In this document: in pieces, positions 7,013 through 60,169 of the stretch
Position numbering within the stretch: position 1 is the stretch's first letter
How the letters are laid out: each line of letters opens with the position of its first letter
Source: an uncultured Gemmatimonadales bacterium
GTDB taxonomy: Bacteria; Gemmatimonadota; Gemmatimonadetes; Gemmatimonadales; GWC2-71-9
Assembly (NCBI GenBank): GCA_963798915.1
Contig: CAWCVB010000005.1
Coordinates: 324,012-388,011, forward strand
Direction: 5' to 3'
Length of the DNA: 64,000 bases
The notes under the pieces: generated by a model
What the model was told of the DNA's origin: nothing
What the model saw: the letters and a program-made list of their open reading frames with translations, nothing else
Databases searched by the model: none
Position numbers and translations under genes: made by a program

Positions 7013-7555
7013 ATGGATACTGCATGTATTTACCATGCCGTGGCGCTGTCCAGCCGGGGCCTTCGCTTGAGCCATCTTACGCTCGCCTACAACACCCTCG
7101 AAGGAACGCTTGCTCTCGGCGCGGGCGTTCTTGCCGGCAGTGTCGCGCTCGTCGGTTTCGGGGCCGACAGTCTTATCGAGGTGACGGCGAGCGGAGCGGC
7201 TGACGCTCCGCATCGTCGGTGGCTGCTTCCTGGCGCTCGCCTTCTGCGTGGCCTGGGATGCGGTGGGCGCGCGGCTCAGGCGGGAGGCGCCGAGTGAATC
7301 CATTCTGGGCATTGTGATAGCCGCCCTCTTCGATCATCGTCGCCGTACACAGCAGCGCACTCGAGGCCGAAGTCGAATCAGACATCGCTCTGTGCCTTCC
7401 TGTCGGTGATCCTCCTCGGCGGCTTGATTCTGAATGCAGTGCTCGGGTGGTGGTGGGCGGACCCCGTCGCTGCGCTGGTCATGACGCCGATCATCGCCGG
7501 CGAGGGGGCTGAGGGACTGCGCGGTGAGTCGTCGTGCGGAGATCAGTGTCACTGA
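7013..7555 (+). pseudogene. Small cation-transporter family protein (CDF-related), frameshifted with internal deletions
   Basis: Motifs lie in three frames. These are RGLRLSHLTLAYNTLEGTLALGAGVLAGSVALVGFGADSLIEV, then ERLTLRIVGGCFLALAFCVAWDAVGARLRREAPSESILGIVIAAL. They end with SSALEAEVESDIALC and FLSVILLGGLILNAVLGWWWADPVAALVMTPIIAGEGAEGLRGESSCGDQCH, up to the TGA at 7553-7555. Confidence 0.55.
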
Positions 7556-7608
7556 GGAGATGACCCTCGAAGGGCAGGGCTTGTCGTGACGACGCAGGTA
7601 CCGGGACG

Positions 7609-7642
7609 AAAAAACGGCCAGCTTCGCATTCAAGCTGGCCGT
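7609..7642 (-). terminator. Intrinsic terminator closing the minus-strand tRNA operon
   Basis: An 11-bp stem (ACGGCCAGCTT 7614-7624 with AAGCTGGCCGT 7632-7642) and a 7-nt loop. The plus-strand A6 run at 7609-7614 gives U6 after the hairpin on the minus-strand transcript, 10 nt past tRNA-Pro. Confidence 0.8.
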
Positions 7643-7652
7643 TTGATATCCA

Positions 7653-7727
7653 TCGGGGCGCCCGGATTTGAACCGGGGACCTCCTGCTCCCGAAGCAGGC
7701 GCGCTAACCGGGCTGCGCTACGCCCCG
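7653..7727 (-). tRNA. tRNA-Pro (anticodon CGG)
   Basis: The reverse complement is CGGGGCGTAGCGCAGCCCGGTTAGCGCGCCTGCTTCGGGAGCAGGAGGTCCCCGGTTCAAATCCGGGCGCCCCGA. It folds as a cloverleaf with a 7-bp acceptor, TTCAAAT T-loop and anticodon loop TTCGGGA. Confidence 0.95.
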
Positions 7728-7767
7728 TGTGGGCTGAAAGCTCCAGTCGAAAAGCACTAGTTTCGCT

Positions 7768-7873
7768 CAGCCTTCAGCCTTCAGCCTCAGCCTTCAGCCT
7801 TCAGCCTTCAGCCTTCAGCCTTCAGCCTTCAGCCTTCAGCCTTCAGCCTTCAGCCTTCAGCCTTCAGCCTTCA
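7768..7873. repeat. (CAGCCTT)x15 heptamer tandem array (one 6-nt unit at 7782-7787) filling the tRNA-Arg to tRNA-Pro spacer
   Basis: Units were counted directly. The array abuts the tRNA-Arg 3' end at 7874. Read on the transcribed minus strand the unit is TGAAGGC / AAGGCTG. Confidence 0.95.
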
Positions 7874-7947
<74 letters not shown>

Positions 7948-7972
7948 TCGGCGGCGCAGAACACGCCAGCCA

Positions 7973-8046
7973 TGGGCGGTACAAGGCTCGAACTTGTGAC
8001 CTCCACGATGTCAACGTGGCGCTCTAACCAACTGAGCTAACCGCCC
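7973..8046 (-). tRNA. tRNA-Val (anticodon GAC)
   Basis: The reverse complement is GGGCGGTTAGCTCAGTTGGTTAGAGCGCCACGTTGACATCGTGGAGGTCACAAGTTCGAGCCTTGTACCGCCCA. The anticodon loop is TTGACAT. Confidence 0.95.
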
Positions 8047-8051
8047 GAGGA

Positions 8052-8171
8052 GACGGACAGACGGCTAGACGGACGGACGGCTAGATGGAGAGTGGTCTGG
8101 TGACGGATGCCATTCCCTCACCGGAGGCCACCAACCGTCTAGCCGTCCAGCCGCCTAACCGTCTTCCTGCC
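8052..8171. repeat. Two inverted arrays of five octamer units around an imperfect central stem; this is the whole tRNA-Val to tRNA-fMet spacer
   Basis: Left arm 8052-8091: GACGGACA GACGGCTA GACGGACG GACGGCTA GATGGAGA. Right arm 8132-8171: CAACCGTC TAGCCGTC CAGCCGCC TAACCGTC TTCCTGCC. The arms pair in one continuous register (p+q=16223). By hand count that is 28 of 40 Watson-Crick pairs. Confidence 0.85.
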
Positions 8172-8172
8172 A

Positions 8173-8246
8173 TAGCGGGGGTGGGATTTGAACCCACGAC
8201 CTCCGGGTTATGAGCCCGGCGAGCTACCAGACTGCTCCACCCCGCG
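8173..8246 (-). tRNA. Initiator tRNA-fMet (anticodon CAT)
   Basis: The reverse complement is CGCGGGGTGGAGCAGTCTGGTAGCTCGCCGGGCTCATAACCCGGAGGTCGTGGGTTCAAATCCCACCCCCGCTA. It has a 1:72 mismatch (C:U) and three G:C pairs closing the anticodon stem. It closely resembles E. coli tRNA-fMet. Confidence 0.9.
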
Positions 8247-8334
8247 ACGCGACCCGTAACTTCAGGTCCATTCCCCGTGGCGGCCTTGGCCGCCACTAAT
8301 CATTGGGTCAGGGCTTAAGCCCTGCCGCCGAGAC

Positions 8335-8352
8335 CTGCTCCACCCCGCGACG
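8335..8352 (-). repeat. 18-nt direct copy of the tRNA-fMet 5' end plus 3 nt of its leader (a tRNA gene fragment)
   Basis: CTGCTCCACCCCGCGACG at 8335-8352 is identical to 8232-8249. That stretch covers the first 15 nt of tRNA-fMet plus 3 nt of leader on the minus strand. Confidence 0.8.
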
Positions 8353-8385
8353 TTGTGACGCTTAGCGCTCAGCGCTGAGCGCTAG

Positions 8386-8458
8386 AGCGGGAAACGGGAC
8401 TCGAACCCGCGACCCCAACCTTGGCAAGGTTGTGCTCTACCAACTGAGCTATTCCCGC
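8386..8458 (-). tRNA. tRNA-Gly (anticodon GCC)
   Basis: The reverse complement is GCGGGAATAGCTCAGTTGGTAGAGCACAACCTTGCCAAGGTTGGGGTCGCGGGTTCGAGTCCCGTTTCCCGCT. The anticodon loop is TTGCCAA. Confidence 0.95.
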
Positions 8459-8562
8459 GAGCGGACGACAATGCTAGCCAGCCGGTTCACGCAACGCAAC
8501 GCCAGCCCCGCACCCGTCCTGTCCCACGCTGCCGCTCCCACGCTGCCGCGCGTCCCACCAAA

Positions 8563-8635
8563 TGGAGGCGAGGGGGATCGAACCCCTGACCTCGTGAATG
8601 CCATTCACGCGCTCTCCCAACTGAGCTACGCCCCC
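8563..8635 (-). tRNA. tRNA-Ala (anticodon GGC)
   Basis: The reverse complement is GGGGGCGTAGCTCAGTTGGGAGAGCGCGTGAATGGCATTCACGAGGTCAGGGGTTCGATCCCCCTCGCCTCCA. The G3:U70 identity pair is present. Confidence 0.95.
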
Positions 8636-8772
8636 GTTATATTGTCGCGCCCCGAAGTGGCCGGGGACGCAGGCGCGGCAGCACGGCAAGTTATCCGAAT
8701 TCACCCGGCCGCGTCAAGCGGCCACGGCCCGCGACGCCTCGCGGCCTCCGGTTTCCGCATTAGTTTGGATCA

Positions 8773-9789
8773 ATGACCAAGAAGCAGGCATCCGACAGCG
8801 GCGATCAGGCGCCCAAGCGGCCCACCAAGCGGCCGCCCGACGACTCCATTCCCGCGATCACCGACGACATGTCGATGGCCGAAATCCTGGCGGCCAGCCC
8901 GCCCGCCAAGGGCAGGCGCAGTCGCAAGCGCGAGACCGCCAAGTCGCTCGGCGTTTACGACGCCGACGGCGACATCCTGGATCAATACCTCTACGAGGTC
9001 AGCCTCACGCCGCTCCTGACGTCGGCCCAGGAGATTGCCATCGCGCGCAAGGTGCGCGCCGGCGATGAAGCCGCCATGCAGGAGCTGGTCAAGCGCAACC
9101 TGCGTTTCGTGATTTCGGTGGCCAAGAAATACCAGAACCGGGGTCTGGCGCTCACGGACCTGATTGGCGAAGGCAATGTGGGTCTCCTGACCGCTGCGCG
9201 GAAATTCGACCCCGACATGGGCGTCAAGTTCATCTCGTATGCCGTGTGGTGGATTCGCCAGGCCATCCTCGCCGCGCTGGCGCGCCATGGCCGCACCGTG
9301 CGGGTGCCACTCAACCGCACCGCGGACCTGTCGCGCATTGGCCGGACCTCGGAGGCCCTCCGCCAGGAACTCCGCCGCGAGCCCACGCCTGAGGAAATCG
9401 CGGCATCGACGGGCCTCGCCCTCGACGTGGTGCAGGCGCTCGCGGCATTGAATACGGCCGAGGTTCGGCTGGATGCGCCGCTCGATCCCGAGGGCGACCG
9501 CTCGCTGATCGATCGCTTCGTTGCCGAAGGACAAGGGGATGTCGAGGAACGGGCCATGGACCAGTTCCTGTCGGAGGAGATCGAAACGGCGCTGCGGACG
9601 CTGCCGCCGCGTGATGCCAAGGTGCTGCGGCTGTACTTCGGGCTGGACGGCGACCGGGAGCACACGCTCGAGGAGATCGGCAGCATGCTCGGTGTCACGC
9701 GCGAGCGGGTGCGCCAGCTGCGCGACCGAGCCCTCAAGCGGCTGCGCGAGGGCGATGCCGGCCGGGCGCTGGCGAGTTTTGCGGCGTAG
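8773..9789 (+). CDS. RNA polymerase sigma factor, sigma-70 family (RpoD/SigA-like)
   Basis: 338 aa. Region 2 reads LVKRNLRFVISVAKKYQNRGLALTDLIGEGNVGLLTAARKFDPDMGVKFISYAVWWIRQAI. Region 4.2 reads TLEEIGSMLGVTRERVRQLRDRALKRLR. Confidence 0.92.
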   Translation: MTKKQASDSGDQAPKRPTKRPPDDSIPAITDDMSMAEILAASPPAKGRRSRKRETAKSLGVYDADGDILDQYLYEVSLTPLLTSAQEIAIARKVRAGDEAAMQELVKRNLRFVISVAKKYQNRGLALTDLIGEGNVGLLTAARKFDPDMGVKFISYAVWWIRQAILAALARHGRTVRVPLNRTADLSRIGRTSEALRQELRREPTPEEIAASTGLALDVVQALAALNTAEVRLDAPLDPEGDRSLIDRFVAEGQGDVEERAMDQFLSEEIETALRTLPPRDAKVLRLYFGLDGDREHTLEEIGSMLGVTRERVRQLRDRALKRLREGDAGRALASFAA

Positions 9790-24496: not shown

Positions 24497-24615
24497 ACGG
24501 AAGGAACGGAGGCGGGAAGGCGGGAAGGCGGGACGCCAAAAGGGGCAGCTTCGCGATAACGCGGCGCTGCCCCTTGCCTCACTCCACTTCCCGTCTTTCC
24601 GTCTTCCCGTCTAAT
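24497..24615. repeat. Inverted octamer arrays flanking the lemA / M23 convergent terminator
   Basis: Left arm 24497-24536: ACGGAAGG AACGGAGG CGGGAAGG CGGGAAGG CGGGACGC. Right arm 24584-24615: CCACTTCC CGTCTTTC CGTCTTCC CGTCTAAT. The last unit contains the M23 gene TAG (24611-24613). Confidence 0.8.
24538..24575. terminator. Bidirectional GC-rich terminator hairpin between lemA and the M23 peptidase gene
   Basis: The stem is GGGGCAGC (24542-24549) with GCTGCCCC (24566-24573), plus an inner CGCG/CGCG stem. It is flanked by AAAA on the left (U4 for the minus transcript) and TT on the right. Confidence 0.7.
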
Positions 24616-56439: not shown

Positions 56440-57282
56440 GTGAGGCGGCTTCGGATCGCCGCCTGCATGGCCCTCGGAAGTGTCGCGTTGACGGCGTGCG
56501 ACCGGCCGCCGGCCAGCCCGGCCTCCACCAGCCTGCCGGGTGTCGTCGCGCTGCGGGTGCCGCCTGACTCGGAGATTCCGGACGGGCCGATGGGGATTGC
56601 CATCCGGCGCGGCCGTGCCTTGCTGGATCACACGCGTGACAGCATGCCAGCATTTGTAGGCAACAGGCTGAACTGCACCAGCTGTCATCCCGCCAATGGC
56701 ACTCAGGCCAACGCCATTCCCTGGGTGGGCGTGTATGCCCGCTTTCCGCAATACCGTGCGCGCAGTGCTGCCGTCCTCACCATCGAAGAGAGAATTGCCG
56801 GCTGCTTCCGAAGATCCATGAACGGCACGGCGCCGCCAGCCGGGAACCGGGATGTCGCCGACATCGTCGCTTACTTTGCGTGGTTATCGCGGGGCGTGCC
56901 GCAAGGAGCCAAGGTGGAAGGACAGGGCCTGCCGCGGTTCGAACTGCTGCATGGCGATACGGCGGCCGGCCGCGCGCTCTACGCCGCCGAATGCGCCCGA
57001 TGTCATAACGCCGATGGCTCGGGCAACGTGGGGCCGGCATTATGGGGAGACGGCAGTTACAACATTGGCGCCGGCATGGCGCGCATCCGCACCGCTGGCT
57101 CGTTCATCCGCCACAACATGCCGTTTGACAAGCCGGGGACGCTGTCAGACGCCCAAGCGGCCAATCTCGCCGCCTACATCAATGCCCAGCCCCGTCCCGA
57201 CCTGCCCGGAAAGGAAAACGACTGGCCCAACGGCGATGCACCACCGGATGCGGCCTATCCGACGCTGGCGTCCCCGCGGTAG
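56440..57282 (+). CDS. Diheme c-type cytochrome lipoprotein (COG3258 / TsdA-like)
   Basis: 280 aa with lipobox LTAC and two CxxCH motifs (CTSCH and CARCH). ARFPQYRARSAAVLTIEERIAGCFRRSMNG resembles the thiosulfate dehydrogenase family. Confidence 0.7.
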   Translation: MRRLRIAACMALGSVALTACDRPPASPASTSLPGVVALRVPPDSEIPDGPMGIAIRRGRALLDHTRDSMPAFVGNRLNCTSCHPANGTQANAIPWVGVYARFPQYRARSAAVLTIEERIAGCFRRSMNGTAPPAGNRDVADIVAYFAWLSRGVPQGAKVEGQGLPRFELLHGDTAAGRALYAAECARCHNADGSGNVGPALWGDGSYNIGAGMARIRTAGSFIRHNMPFDKPGTLSDAQAANLAAYINAQPRPDLPGKENDWPNGDAPPDAAYPTLASPR

Positions 57283-57304
57283 GGCAGAGAGATGAGAGCT
57301 AAAA

Positions 57305-57376
57305 GCTGAAGGCAGTAGCTTCGCTCAGCCTTCAGCCTTCAGCCTTCAGCCTTCAGCCTTCAGCCTTCAGCCTTCA
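57305..57376. repeat. Second (CAGCCTT)n locus: anti-repeat GCTGAAGGC, TTCGCT linker and seven units plus CA
   Basis: GCTGAAGGC (57305-57313) is the exact complement of GCCTTCAGC in the array. The units run 57326-57374. The flank AGCTTCGCTCAG matches AGTTTCGCTCAG at 7759-7770. The final TCA is the TGA stop of the TonB receptor gene. Confidence 0.9.
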
Positions 57377-60169
57377 AAACACCAACTCCACACCCAGTCG
57401 CGCCAGCCGGGGGGTCCCGTAGGCAAAGAGCGGTTGGGTGTAGTCAATGGCGGCCGCCTGGTAGAGTGGCAGCAGTTCGGTCTGGCCCGCGATGAAGCCG
57501 TCATGGTTCAGGTCGGCGGCCGCGCGATATCGCTCCGACTCATACGGTATGGCTTCGGGGTGCTGCAGGTACGCATCCATGGCCATCGACGAAAGGACGC
57601 TGGCAGGGGCGTCAGGCGTCCCGGTATCGCGTCGGACCGCGACGACATTGCGTCGGTTCAGCAGGTTCCGCACGTCCAGGTAGATGCCGCCACGCACCCC
57701 GGCCAGCGTGAGCGGCCGGCGCAGCAGCACGTCGAACGTGGTCGTGAACGGCAGCCGGGCGTCATTGGGAAGCCCGTTCATCGTGTCGCTGCCGATCGGC
57801 CTGCTGGTGTATGGCAGGCCGGAGTTGATCCGGCTGATGAGCGCCGCTTCGAAACCGGCGAACGGCCGGATCCCCGCGAATGAGGGCCCTGCGCTGTCGC
57901 GTACCTGCCCCTGCAGGATCATCGTCAGCGTGTGGCGCCGATCGAAGTCGAGCGGGAACTCGACCTTGGCAGGGAAGATCGTGTCGTGCGTGAGGGTGTC
58001 GATCCGTATGGCGCGACGAAGCAGGAAGGCGCTGCTCGACGAAGCGGTCGCCTGCTGGAGTGTGTACGCGACTCGCACGCCGATCCCATGCTGCAGGTCG
58101 CGATCCAGGATCAGCTCCATGCCCTTGACCGTGCCGATATCCGTGTTGCCGAAAATCGACGAATCGGGGTCCTGGCCCAGCGGGACTGACGAAACCAGCC
58201 CTTCCAGCCGTTTGACGTAGATATTGGCCCGCACCGTAAGATTGTCGCGCGGACGGGCGCGCAAGCTCATTTCGTACTGCCACGAATCTTCAAAGCCGAG
58301 ATTCGGGTTGCCCTGGCGGAACCGTCCGGTACGAGTCGTGTCGTCAAAGGCCGCGTCCACGAGGTACTGATAATCGGGTGGCTGGCTGAAGCGGCCAATG
58401 CTCGCCACGAACGTGGCATGGTGGAAAACAGTCGATACACCAATGCGGGGATTGACTCGCAGCTTCGCGCCGGCGTCGGTTCCGGGCAGGTCCACGCGCG
58501 TGTCAAAGCGATCCACGCGCAGTCCGGCGGTGAAGCCCAGCTCGGCCAGGCGGAATTGACCCTCCGCGTAGGCCGCGGCGGCCACTGGCGAAAATTCGGA
58601 GGCCGTTGCCGGTGGAACCGAGTCGCCCGTGGGCAGGTACCCGAGGATGCGCTGGAAGGTGCGCACGCGTTGCTGAACCAGCTCTCCGCCGGCGTAGATA
58701 TCACCATGACTACCGGCGCTGAAGGTCAAGTCGAGCTGTGACCGGAGTTCCCGGAACTGGTTCCAGGCCAATTCGCCTCGGGAGCCCCCGGTAAGGAAGA
58801 ACGCCGGAACGCCCCACGGAGTACCCGCCGCCAGGGTTGGCGCCTCGAGCCCCGGGATGGGAGCGGCCGCCGCGGTGGTGTCCTGCGCCCGCGCGATATC
58901 TTCGCCGACGACGTTGAAGCGTGAGCCAGTGAAGGCGCCGAACTGGTAGTCCGGACTGCTGTCGAGTGTGCCGCGCACGAAATCACGATTAAAGACCGAG
59001 AGGCGCAGGTCCGCCACGAACGGGTGCCGCGAGGTCGGTCCGCTGGCGTGCTGGAAATGGATGCTCCCCAGCGTGCCCGCCACGCGTCGCGCCGGACCAC
59101 CGTCGGGGTCGTACTTGAAGACGGGATCGTAGAGCAGGCGCTGGTCGATCGACCGCAGTCCGAAGACCCGAATCGTTTCCGTGTGGCCAAGCGGAATCGT
59201 GAGCTTGCCGCCAAAGTTGTACTCTTCGCCTCCGTTGTGCGGCAGCATCCAGGGATTCCCCGCTCGGGGATCGAGCGCGTTCTCAGGCGGCGGCGCGTTG
59301 ACCGGGTCGGCATCCAGCCGGGCGGAGAGATCCGCCGAGACGACCGCCCGAATGCCGCCCGCCACCGGCCCGTCTGCCTCGAAGACGGCCCGGTCGAGAC
59401 CATAGTCCCAGCCATCGCCAAAGGGCCGATCGGTTTCATATGCCGTGCGTCCCGACCACTGCTCCCCACCGTCCTTGGTGACGATGTTGACGATGCCGGA
59501 GATGGCCTGCCCATAGCGGGCGGAGAAGCCATTGGTCACCAGGGATGCCTCGGTGAGCATGTCGGTCGGAAAACGGAGGCCGAGCGCGCCGGTGGAGGCG
59601 TCCAATTGGTTCTTGACGCCCAGCCCGTCGATCACAAACGCTTGCTGGCCCAGACGGCCGCCCCGGTAGCTTTCGCCGACAGCACCCGCCGAAAGCGCCA
59701 GGGCATCTTCGAGTGTGCTGACTGGAAGCCGGCGGAGGTCGGCGCTCGAAATCACCTGCTCGGACTGGGTGGCGAGCGGATCGAGAACCCGGTCGGAGGT
59801 CTCGACAATCAGGGGGGCGAGTTCGATGGCGCGGGGCCGCATCGTGACATTGGCGACGCTGGTGGCACCGGCGCGGACCACGAGGCTGTCGCGGCGAAGG
59901 GGAGCATAGCCGAGGGCACGGACATTCAGCGTATAGCTGCCGGCCCGAACGGCGCGGATCCGGTAGGCACCCGCGGTGTCGGTCACACTTCCGCGACGTC
60001 CGTCGTCGATGGTCACGAGCGCCCCGCTGATGCCTGCGCCAGTGGCACTGTCGGTGATGATACCGCTGATGGCCCCGGCGGACTGGGCGGTTGCGCGAGT
60101 GGCGCTGAAGGTCAGCACGGCGCAGGCAAGCATCAGCGTCACGAGACGTGATTGGCTGCGGGCGCTCAT
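57374..60169 (-). CDS. TonB-dependent receptor with an N-terminal carboxypeptidase-regulatory-like domain
   Basis: 931 aa with a signal peptide, GIITDSATGAGISGALV, plug motifs, and a C-terminal ..RLGVELVF. Confidence 0.9.
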   Translation of the reverse strand: MSARSQSRLVTLMLACAVLTFSATRATAQSAGAISGIITDSATGAGISGALVTIDDGRRGSVTDTAGAYRIRAVRAGSYTLNVRALGYAPLRRDSLVVRAGATSVANVTMRPRAIELAPLIVETSDRVLDPLATQSEQVISSADLRRLPVSTLEDALALSAGAVGESYRGGRLGQQAFVIDGLGVKNQLDASTGALGLRFPTDMLTEASLVTNGFSARYGQAISGIVNIVTKDGGEQWSGRTAYETDRPFGDGWDYGLDRAVFEADGPVAGGIRAVVSADLSARLDADPVNAPPPENALDPRAGNPWMLPHNGGEEYNFGGKLTIPLGHTETIRVFGLRSIDQRLLYDPVFKYDPDGGPARRVAGTLGSIHFQHASGPTSRHPFVADLRLSVFNRDFVRGTLDSSPDYQFGAFTGSRFNVVGEDIARAQDTTAAAAPIPGLEAPTLAAGTPWGVPAFFLTGGSRGELAWNQFRELRSQLDLTFSAGSHGDIYAGGELVQQRVRTFQRILGYLPTGDSVPPATASEFSPVAAAAYAEGQFRLAELGFTAGLRVDRFDTRVDLPGTDAGAKLRVNPRIGVSTVFHHATFVASIGRFSQPPDYQYLVDAAFDDTTRTGRFRQGNPNLGFEDSWQYEMSLRARPRDNLTVRANIYVKRLEGLVSSVPLGQDPDSSIFGNTDIGTVKGMELILDRDLQHGIGVRVAYTLQQATASSSSAFLLRRAIRIDTLTHDTIFPAKVEFPLDFDRRHTLTMILQGQVRDSAGPSFAGIRPFAGFEAALISRINSGLPYTSRPIGSDTMNGLPNDARLPFTTTFDVLLRRPLTLAGVRGGIYLDVRNLLNRRNVVAVRRDTGTPDAPASVLSSMAMDAYLQHPEAIPYESERYRAAADLNHDGFIAGQTELLPLYQAAAIDYTQPLFAYGTPRLARLGVELVF

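What the first reader, a model, noticed from the sequence alone, without database searches (positions are those of the whole stretch)
7732..7873. (CAGCCTT)x15 fills the tRNA-Arg to tRNA-Pro spacer and can pair with an upstream anti-repeat only in the transcribed sense
Fifteen heptamer units start directly at the tRNA-Arg 3' end. Near the other end of the spacer, GGCTGAAAGC (7732-7741) is complementary to the repeat (GCCTTCAGCC) except at one position. In the minus-sense RNA, which is the sense of the tRNAs, that position is a G:U wobble, giving 10 of 10 pairable. In plus-sense RNA it is an A/C mismatch. The anti-repeat can pair with any unit, so the structure is a sliding or register-variable hairpin in the pre-tRNA. 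Read in the tRNA sense, the unit TGAAGGC places a TGA in all three frames every 21 nt.
Basis: seen in the sequence. Interest (0 to 1): 0.6.

Follow-up and report, generated by a model that had tools for sequence, protein, structure and literature searches.

The report
Heptamer repeat array in tRNA spacer
The 15-unit CAGCCTT array between tRNA-Arg and tRNA-Pro is real, but it is one ordinary, recently expanded copy of a repeat-hairpin family that fills gene and tRNA 3' flanks throughout this Gemmatimonadales genome, and tests found no sign that it pairs preferentially in the transcribed sense.

Summary
Observation confirmed. The array 7768-7873 holds 14 perfect CAGCCTT units, one 6-nt unit and a partial unit. 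It starts at the first base after tRNA-Arg(acg). The anti-repeat GGCTGAAAGC (7732-7741) lies 4 nt from tRNA-Pro(cgg) and is not a chance match (expected 0.011).

Interpretation not supported. The hairpin forms on both strands (-24.7 vs -21.7 kcal/mol). The G:U versus A/C argument rests on one position. Across array hairpins in the genome there is no sense bias (92/92 and 70/62). In tRNA spacers of relatives, where the sense is known, the counts are 21 G/T vs 28 A/C.

The array belongs to a genome-wide family: 568 period-7 arrays, G-rich arm first in 112 of 132 hairpins, median 7 nt after the upstream gene. About 20 of 46 tRNA trailers carry one. Congeners have 10-12 nt, or other hairpins, at this spacer, so the array is a young gain.

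Most likely it is a slippage-expanded passenger, transcribed with the operon and cut out by RNase Z and RNase P. This repeat type is described in Xanthomonas and Nostoc (Rehm 2015), and this scan had already noted it elsewhere in this genome.

In passing: RNase III was not found in 31 genomes of the order.

The parts
7609..7643 (-). Canonical intrinsic terminator after tRNA-Pro: ACGGCCAGCTT-GAATGC-AAGCTGGCCGT followed by TTTTTT in tRNA sense. It marks the end of the six-tRNA operon.
   Evidence: Read directly from the sequence. Equivalent hairpin plus T-run follows tRNA-Pro in relatives L002, L003 and L005. The consensus scan did not list it.
7653..7727 (-). tRNA-Pro(cgg), last gene of the Ala-Gly-Met-Val-Arg-Pro cluster
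   Evidence: ARAGORN; Rfam RF00005, 66.7 bits
7732..7741 (.). Anti-repeat GGCTGAAAGC. It is the vestigial G-rich partner arm (about 1.4 units) of the array and lies 4 nt from the tRNA-Pro 5' end.
   Evidence: Sequence; chance expectation 0.011; always paired in the ensemble fold
7742..7767 (.). Loop/linker with an inner stem, CGAAA (7748-7752) pairing with TTTCG (7761-7765). It ends in the junction motif TTCGCT, which is shared with other CAGCCTT loci.
   Evidence: Folds. TTCGC(T) junction seen at 57320-57325 and at C3:114239, C15:25905 and C2:18621, and in congener G004.
7768..7873 (.). (CAGCCTT)15 array, read as (TGAAGGC)n in tRNA sense. It is the expanded C-rich arm; one unit (7782-7787) lacks a T.
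   Evidence: TRF 15.4 copies, 98% matches; pattern search; tenth longest 7-9-nt array in the genome
7874..7947 (-). tRNA-Arg(acg). CCA is not encoded, and its trailer starts with the T of the first repeat unit.
   Evidence: ARAGORN; Rfam 70.8 bits; trailer table
57305..57376 (.). Second copy of the same design between convergent genes: perfect anti-repeat GCTGAAGGC (57305-57313), linker ending in TTCGCT, then (CAGCCTT)7 at 57326-57374.
   Evidence: TRF; sequence; orthologous sites in congeners

Best explanation
The array is one arm of a dispersed 'paired short-repeat array' hairpin that has grown by replication slippage. The design is a G-rich arm, a short loop, then a C-rich arm. It is a lineage-specific occupant of the tRNA-Arg/tRNA-Pro spacer.

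Shown here:
- It belongs to a genome-wide family with a fixed arm order.
- It sits flush against gene 3' ends, like other members.
- It was gained within the genus.
- The family shows no bias towards the transcribed sense.

Inferred:
- The array is transcribed as part of the Ala-Gly-Met-Val-Arg-Pro precursor.
- The 146-nt spacer folds on itself. RNase Z cuts after the tRNA-Arg discriminator (CCA is not encoded and U is at +1), and RNase P cuts at the tRNA-Pro 5' end. The spacer is then discarded.
- At this site the array has no sense-specific role. It fills the space that tRNA function leaves free.
- Any function is the one shared by the whole family, such as a 3'-flank hairpin, not one tied to pre-tRNA register sliding.
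For: Family membership:
- 568 period-7 TRF arrays in 3.3 Mb. The unit AAGGCTG/CAGCCTT gives 42 of them.
- Arrays of at least 10 copies: 37 intergenic vs 10 genic, with 16.6% of the genome intergenic.
- 12 of 22 CAGCCTT loci have GCTGAAR anti-units upstream, none downstream.
- The G-rich arm comes first in 112 of 132 hairpins with skewed arms.
- Hairpins lie a median of 7 nt from the upstream gene and 51 nt from the next gene.

tRNA context:
- None of the 46 tRNA/tmRNA trailers starts with CCA; 38 of 46 start with T; about 20 start with such arrays.
- RNase Z is present at 337.9 bits, above the 292.95 cut-off.
- In relatives, 21 of 69 tRNA spacers of at least 40 nt hold hairpins scoring 12 or more. 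Twenty shuffles gave none.

Young gain:
- The Arg>Pro spacer is 10-12 nt in congeners G003, G007 and G009. It is 61 nt with plain GC hairpins in G005, and 61 nt with (GTCGTGG)3 inverted arrays in G006.
- (CAGCCTT)3 or longer is found in 6 of 10 genomes of the genus and in none of 31 genomes from 25 other genera of the order.
- The array is 98% homogeneous.

Turnover: the orthologous site of the second copy keeps a paired-array hairpin in congeners, but with other units and copy numbers.

No sense bias.

Operon: a canonical terminator follows tRNA-Pro only, and no promoter-like site lies in the spacer.
Against: - Transcription, cleavage sites and true copy number are therefore untested.
- Some relatives separate tRNA-Arg and tRNA-Pro by 886 nt with a terminator (L013). 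An ancestral operon boundary at this junction cannot be excluded.
- The promoter scan found nothing even upstream of tRNA-Ala, so it says little for this phylum.
- Hairpins persist at the same junctions (Met>Val in 9 of 11 genomes) although their units differ. The fixed G-first order also holds. Both could reflect selection for a structure, that is, a function I cannot name.
- My gene calls are a crude codon-usage model.
Confidence: 0.6

Rival explanations
1. RNA-level functional element. The spacer hairpin brings the tRNA-Arg 3' end and the tRNA-Pro 5' end together, or keeps neighbouring tRNAs from misfolding. It would guide or pace RNase Z and RNase P processing, in a lineage that seems to lack RNase III.
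For: - In the fold of the whole precursor both cloverleaf acceptor stems form. The spacer helix closes 5 nt after tRNA-Arg and 4 nt before tRNA-Pro.
- The - sense spacer folds better than shuffles, z = -3.0.
- Hairpins recur at the same tRNA junctions across genera with different units.
- RNase III was not found in 31 genomes of the order, so long helices would not be cleaved by it.
Against: - There is no excess of G:U over A/C on the transcribed strand, in tRNA spacers (21 vs 28) or genome-wide.
- Congeners manage with 10-12-nt spacers at this junction.
- The partner arm here is vestigial: the locus scores below 12 on the hairpin measure that other spacers pass.
- The opposite arm asymmetry occurs after another tRNA-Pro, at C6:145917.
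Confidence: 0.2
2. DNA-level role or selfish spread. The hairpins would be small mobile or gene-converting elements (REP/MITE-like), or binding or structure-forming sites on DNA such as cruciforms or G-quadruplexes. The tRNA spacer would be just one landing site.
For: - The arm order is the same on both strands and there is no transcription-sense bias, which fits a DNA-level entity.
- A shared junction motif TAG(C/T)TTCGC occurs at several CAGCCTT loci and in congener G004.
- The unit family is restricted to part of one genus.
- Y1 (IS200/RAYT-type) transposase homologues exist in the genome, best 72.6 bits.
- Many hairpin loops hold nested REP-like palindromes.
Against: - No transposase was linked to the arrays and no target-site duplications were seen.
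- TGAAGGC has only GG runs, so the three-G-tract quadruplex rule described by Rehm 2015 is not met.
- Orthologous sites keep a hairpin while the unit drifts by point changes. That looks like in-place concerted evolution, not repeated insertion.
Confidence: 0.12
3. Assembly artefact: the length of the array, or its position, is wrong.
For: - This is a metagenome-type assembly, 84.8% complete in 17 contigs.
- In congeners, such arrays end contigs: G004:C297, G004:C474 and G006:C95.
Against: - The array lies 8 kb into a window inside a 517-kb contig, with unique sequence on both sides.
- It carries an internal variant unit.
- At 106 nt it is short enough for single reads or long k-mers to span.
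- Fourteen other arrays of similar or greater length exist in the genome.
Confidence: 0.05

Closest known systems
Intergenic GGGAATC / GGGGA(C/T)T heptamer arrays of Xanthomonas and Nostoc (Rehm et al. 2015, PLoS One 10:e0144275, PMC4692102)
   Same: - Tandem heptamers of 2-26 units, spread over the genome and enriched in non-coding DNA.
- They lie within 50 bp of the stop codon of the 5' neighbour.
- Many are convergent inverted pairs that can form stem-loops.
- Position and type are kept between close species while length and sequence vary.
- Both strands are found in transcripts, and the function is unknown.
   Different: - The unit here has no GGG tract, so the quadruplex rationale does not apply.
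- This genome uses dozens of different 7-9-nt units, not one.
- The lineage is Gemmatimonadales.
- This copy sits inside a tRNA operon; the paper does not mention tRNA at all (0 occurrences).
STRR (short tandemly repeated repetitive) heptamers of heterocystous cyanobacteria (Mazel et al. 1990; cited from my own knowledge, not read here)
   Same: Tandem heptanucleotide arrays in intergenic DNA, with several unit families per genome.
   Different: They are cyanobacterial with different units. As far as I recall, paired inverted arrays and tRNA-spacer copies are not their defining feature. Not tested here.
REP/BIME extragenic palindromes of enterobacteria
   Same: Hundreds of copies, hairpin-forming, placed just after stop codons inside transcription units. 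They are thought to stabilise upstream RNA. A Y1 transposase family (RAYT) has homologues in this genome.
   Different: REPs are single conserved palindromes of about 35 nt, not variable tandem arrays. No conserved GTAG-type head was seen, and no RAYT was linked to the arrays here.
TAACTGA direct repeats of marine Beggiatoaceae (MacGregor 2015, PMC4679880)
   Same: An intergenic tandem heptamer whose unit carries stop codons in several frames, found patchily across distant phyla. (CAGCCTT)5 or longer likewise occurs in at least 115 records from many phyla.
   Different: TAACTGA sets are short (2-6 copies), lie just upstream of start codons, and are almost never inverted (1 of 170 sets). The proposed role there is translational.

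Membership tests
Paired short-repeat array hairpins of this genome and order (Rehm-type intergenic heptamer arrays in the wide sense) | Tandem array of a 7-9-nt unit in non-coding DNA | tested here: met
   TRF period 7, 15.4 copies, lying wholly between two tRNA genes
Paired short-repeat array hairpins of this genome and order (Rehm-type intergenic heptamer arrays in the wide sense) | Inverted partner arm, with the G-rich arm 5' of the C-rich arm on either strand | tested here: met
   GGCTGAAAGC lies upstream of the CAGCCTT array on the + strand. The family rule holds in 112 of 132 hairpins. The partner here is only about 1.4 units long.
Paired short-repeat array hairpins of this genome and order (Rehm-type intergenic heptamer arrays in the wide sense) | Sits directly after the 3' end of the upstream gene | tested here: met
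   Starts at base +1 after tRNA-Arg. The family median is 7 nt.
Paired short-repeat array hairpins of this genome and order (Rehm-type intergenic heptamer arrays in the wide sense) | Same unit at many other loci of the genome | tested here: met
   42 TRF arrays of the unit AAGGCTG; 26 perfect runs of at least 2 units
G-quadruplex-forming heptamer repeats (Rehm 2015, strict sense) | At least four G-tracts of three or more G at heptamer spacing | tested here: not met
   The unit TGAAGGC has only a GG run
Intrinsic (Rho-independent) terminator | GC-rich hairpin followed at once by a U-tract on the transcribed strand | tested here: not met
   In tRNA sense the anti-repeat is followed by CCCACACGGGG. 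No terminator-like site was found in the spacer. The real hairpin plus T6 lies after tRNA-Pro.
RNA structure under selection on the transcribed strand | Excess of G:U-compatible over A/C oppositions on the transcribed strand, across members | tested here: not met
   92/92 between tandem + genes and 70/62 between tandem - genes; 21 vs 28 in tRNA spacers read in tRNA sense
Known RNA families (Rfam 15) | Match above the gathering score in the spacer | tested here: not met
   Only the six tRNAs pass. Spacer hits (sR30, 15-17 bits against a gathering score of 38) are noise.
REP elements mobilised by RAYT | Conserved palindrome with a fixed head sequence, and a linked Y1 transposase | tested here: inconclusive
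   Y1_Tnp homologues exist but their linkage to the arrays was not examined. The arrays themselves are not a single conserved palindrome.

The most novel reading that the evidence does not exclude
In an order where RNase III could not be found, short-repeat hairpins may be a maintained structural feature of gene and tRNA 3' flanks. They are placed flush after tRNA 3' ends and persist at the same operon junctions while their units turn over. They would set 3' ends for RNase Z or shield them from exonucleases. The repeat nature would then be the means by which the helix is rebuilt quickly after decay. The tRNA-Arg/Pro array would be one such element caught in a lopsided state.
Probability: 0.15. 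Interest if true: 0.6.

Novelty: new member of a known kind. Interest (0 to 1): 0.27.

Why it matters
By itself this locus is a routine copy of a repeat class that is already described. Its use is as a clean test case. Inside a tRNA operon the transcribed strand is known, so the claim of RNA-sense selection could be tested, and it failed.

The wider pattern may deserve work in a cultured Gemmatimonas relative. Its elements are a fixed arm order, hairpins kept at the same junctions with changing units, tRNA trailers starting with U and then a hairpin, and RNase III not being found. That work could say whether bacterial heptamer arrays, unexplained since their description in cyanobacteria and Xanthomonas, act on RNA 3' ends or are only slippage products.

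Tried and rejected
- **Same insertion in other strains:** exact scans for the unique linker and for the array/tRNA-Arg junction found nothing. Metagenome contigs were scanned for both and genome contigs for the linker.
- **Orthologous array in congener G004:** its CAGCCTT arrays at contig ends (C474, C297) flank protein genes, not tRNA-Arg. In G002 the contig ends inside tRNA-Pro, so the spacer is unknown.
- **Promoter/terminator scan of 7300-9000:** no hits on either strand. It also missed the evident terminator after tRNA-Pro, so it says little.
- **Rfam at permissive E-value:** only the tRNAs.
- **Wobble asymmetry by transcription sense:** none.
- **Arm-length asymmetry by transcription sense:** none.
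- **Shared loop motif across all hairpin families:** none found. Instead, many loops hold unrelated nested REP-like palindromes. The TTCGC junction is limited to the CAGCCTT family.
- **Coding reading:** the + strand ORF 7586-7915 runs through two tRNA genes and failed my codon model. Rejected.
- **G-quadruplex reading:** rejected, because the unit has only GG.
- **Literature:** a search for the unit itself found no paper.

Full report
**Observation.** The window holds a six-tRNA cluster on the minus strand: Ala(ggc), Gly(gcc), Met(cat), Val(gac), Arg(acg), Pro(cgg) (Rfam agrees). Between tRNA-Pro (7653-7727) and tRNA-Arg (7874-7947) lies a 146-nt spacer. TRF reports a period-7 array at 7767-7873, 15.4 copies, 98% matches. 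Read directly, units start at 7768 and run to 7865. The third unit (7782-7787) lacks a T, and 'CA' ends the array at 7873. In tRNA sense the array is (TGAAGGC)n and begins at the first base after the tRNA-Arg discriminator. A match of that quality is expected 0.011 times in the 40 non-array bases.

**The locus is one of many.** A second array of the same unit lies at 57326-57374, with a perfect anti-repeat (57305-57313) and the same TTCGCT junction. The whole genome (3.3 Mb, 17 contigs, 66% G+C) has 568 period-7 TRF arrays. The leading units are GACGACC-like families, and AAGGCTG/CAGCCTT gives 42 arrays. With my crude codon-usage gene calls, arrays of ten or more heptamer copies are 37 intergenic against 10 genic, although only 16.6% of the genome is intergenic. 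The tRNA-spacer array is the tenth longest of the 7-9-nt arrays; the longest has 26.9 copies.
- Of 22 CAGCCTT loci, 12 have GCTGAAR anti-units upstream and none downstream.
- Among hairpins built on arrays, the G-rich arm comes first in 112 and the C-rich arm first in 20. This order is the same on either strand.
- Between tandem genes the hairpin lies a median of 7 nt after the upstream gene and 51 nt before the next.

**tRNA trailers are a usual home for these arrays.** None of the 46 tRNA/tmRNA trailers in the genome starts with CCA, 38 start with T, and about 20 go straight into a G-first short-repeat array. After tRNA-Pro at C6:145917 the G arm is short and the C arm long in tRNA sense. 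That is the reverse of the asymmetry at our locus.

**Relatives.** The tRNA cluster is conserved through the order.
- Its spacers are repeatedly filled by inverted arrays of other 7-9-mers. Of 69 spacers of at least 40 nt, 21 hold a hairpin scoring 12 or more; twenty shuffles gave none. The Met>Val junction has one in 9 of 11 genomes.
- At the Arg>Pro junction, congeners G003, G007 and G009 have 10-12 nt. G005 has 61 nt of plain GC hairpins. G006 has 61 nt of (GTCGTGG)3 inverted arrays. Other genera range from 3 nt to 176 nt.
- (CAGCCTT)3 or longer is present in 6 of 10 genomes of the genus and in none of 31 genomes from the other 25 genera searched. The array here is therefore a gain within the genus.
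- At the orthologous site of the second copy, every congener examined has a paired-array or short repeat hairpin, but with other units (GCTGAGA, GAGCTAA, GGGATCA) and other arm lengths. Position is stable and sequence is fluid.
- The same heptamer in runs of five or more occurs in at least 115 genome records from many phyla, usually beside other heptamer arrays. The unit has therefore probably arisen many times independently.

- The tRNA-sense spacer folds to -57.7 kcal/mol (z = -3.0 against shuffles) and the opposite sense to -25.9 (z = +1.4). Most of that gap comes from GGCU/GGCU self-pairing inside the G+U-rich array: the array alone folds to -38.8. It does not come from the anti-repeat.
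- The proximal hairpin, which includes the anti-repeat and an inner CGAAA/TTTCG stem, forms in both senses, at -24.7 and -21.7 kcal/mol.
- In the ensemble the anti-repeat is always paired, in three registers: 71% with the unit next to tRNA-Arg, then 18% and 10% with the two units nearest the loop. 'Register-variable' is fair; 'only in the transcribed sense' is not.
- The wobble argument rests on one base, so I tested it on the family. Between tandem + genes, G/T and A/C oppositions are 92 and 92. Between tandem - genes they are 70 and 62, and RNA-level selection predicts the reverse there.
- In 21 tRNA-spacer hairpins of relatives, where the sense is certain, wobble-capable oppositions number 21 and A/C 28.
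- The longer arm is G-rich or C-rich on the transcribed strand equally often (50/50 and 38/41).
- I found nothing that supports selection on the transcribed strand.

**Operon context.** A canonical hairpin plus T6 follows tRNA-Pro (7609-7643, read), and relatives have the same feature there. Nothing like it follows the array. No sigma-70-like site lies in the spacer, but the scan also found none upstream of tRNA-Ala, so it carries little weight. Spacers of 3-12 nt in relatives leave no room for a separate promoter, so co-transcription is the likely ancestral state. One relative (L013) does split Arg and Pro by 886 nt with a terminator. RNase Z is present and so is Rho. CCA-less genes with U at +1 fit endonucleolytic 3' maturation by RNase Z, as established for Bacillus subtilis (my own knowledge).

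**Best explanation.** The array is a slippage-expanded arm of a family hairpin, gained recently. It is carried in the precursor and removed by RNase Z and RNase P, with no role tied to the transcribed sense (confidence 0.6). Rivals:
- An RNA-level processing or insulating role (0.2).
- A DNA-level or selfish element (0.12).
- An assembly error (0.05).

**Known relatives.** Rehm et al. 2015 describe the same anatomy for GGGAATC in Xanthomonas and GGGGAYT in Nostoc. Their repeats are non-coding, lie within 50 bp of the 5' neighbour's stop codon, form convergent inverted pairs in 70-75 cases, vary in length and sequence between close species, and have no known function. The unit here lacks GGG, so their quadruplex rationale does not carry over. 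MacGregor 2015 describes TAACTGA arrays with a different placement. No paper holds the CAGCCTT repeat. Earlier notes of this scan had already described the genome-wide arrays on another piece of this genome and named the Rehm paper. I checked the paper and redid the counts myself.

**Limits.** Gene calls are home-made. Kin genomes are not independent samples.

**In passing.**
- Three RNase III models found nothing in 31 genomes of the order, 23 of them at least 90% complete, while controls rang in 8-9 model bacteria. The ERLEFLGD-type signature is absent from the six-frame translation of this genome.
- Many hairpin loops hold nested REP-like palindromes.
- Y1 transposase homologues exist in the genome.

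Noticed in passing
whole genome G000 and 30 relatives of the order: RNase III was not found with three models (TIGR02191, PF14622, PF00636) in 31 genomes, 23 of them at least 90% complete. Controls rang in 8-9 model bacteria. No ERLEFLGD-type signature appears in the six-frame translation of G000. A lineage without a dsRNA endonuclease might tolerate long hairpins in its transcripts.
   Followed up: partly
genome-wide; in the window for example 8052-8171 and 24497-24615: Array hairpins have a fixed arm order: the G-rich arm is 5' of the C-rich arm in 112 of 132 cases, which reads the same on both strands. tRNA spacers of relatives give 19 of 21. Rehm 2015 reports the same 'convergent' order in Xanthomonas. 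I have no tested explanation. One untested idea is that it avoids exposing C-rich RNA to Rho.
   Followed up: partly
G000 C1:274565-274656, C1:128221-128475, C1:46277-46454 and others: Loops of many array hairpins contain other dispersed palindromes, such as TTGTCATCCTGAGCGAAGCGAAGGATC...GCTCAGGATGACAA, GGAATGACA-type and GGGGTCCATGAGGG-type. This suggests REP/MITE-like elements nested inside the arrays. Three Y1_Tnp homologues are present.
   Followed up: no
Hosts include Desulfobulbaceae, Geobacter, Acidobacteriota, Planctomycetota, Chloroflexaceae, cyanobacteria, Pseudomonas, Bacteroidales and others. The array often adjoins arrays of other heptamers. Within the window's own order the unit is confined to part of one genus.
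   Followed up: partly
window 7973-8635 and relatives L001-L030: The Met>Val tRNA spacer holds a strong paired-array hairpin in 9 of 11 genomes that have this junction, each with a different unit. Some relatives pack Ala, Gly, Val and Arg only 0-3 nt apart.
   Followed up: partly
window 57240-57400 and L160-L164: At the orthologous convergent-gene site, congeners carry (GCTGAGA)14/(CCCTCAG)9, (GAGCTAA)6/(CTCACAG)3 or GGGATCA-type hairpins. In G005 each unit carries the same A/C (or G:U) opposition between the arms, which points to arm-wise homogenisation.
   Followed up: no
G000 tRNA trailers (all contigs): None of the 46 tRNA/tmRNA trailers starts with CCA, and 38 of 46 start with T. This fits RNase Z-type 3' processing with U at +1. 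RNase Z is found at C2:761507-762397.
   Followed up: partly
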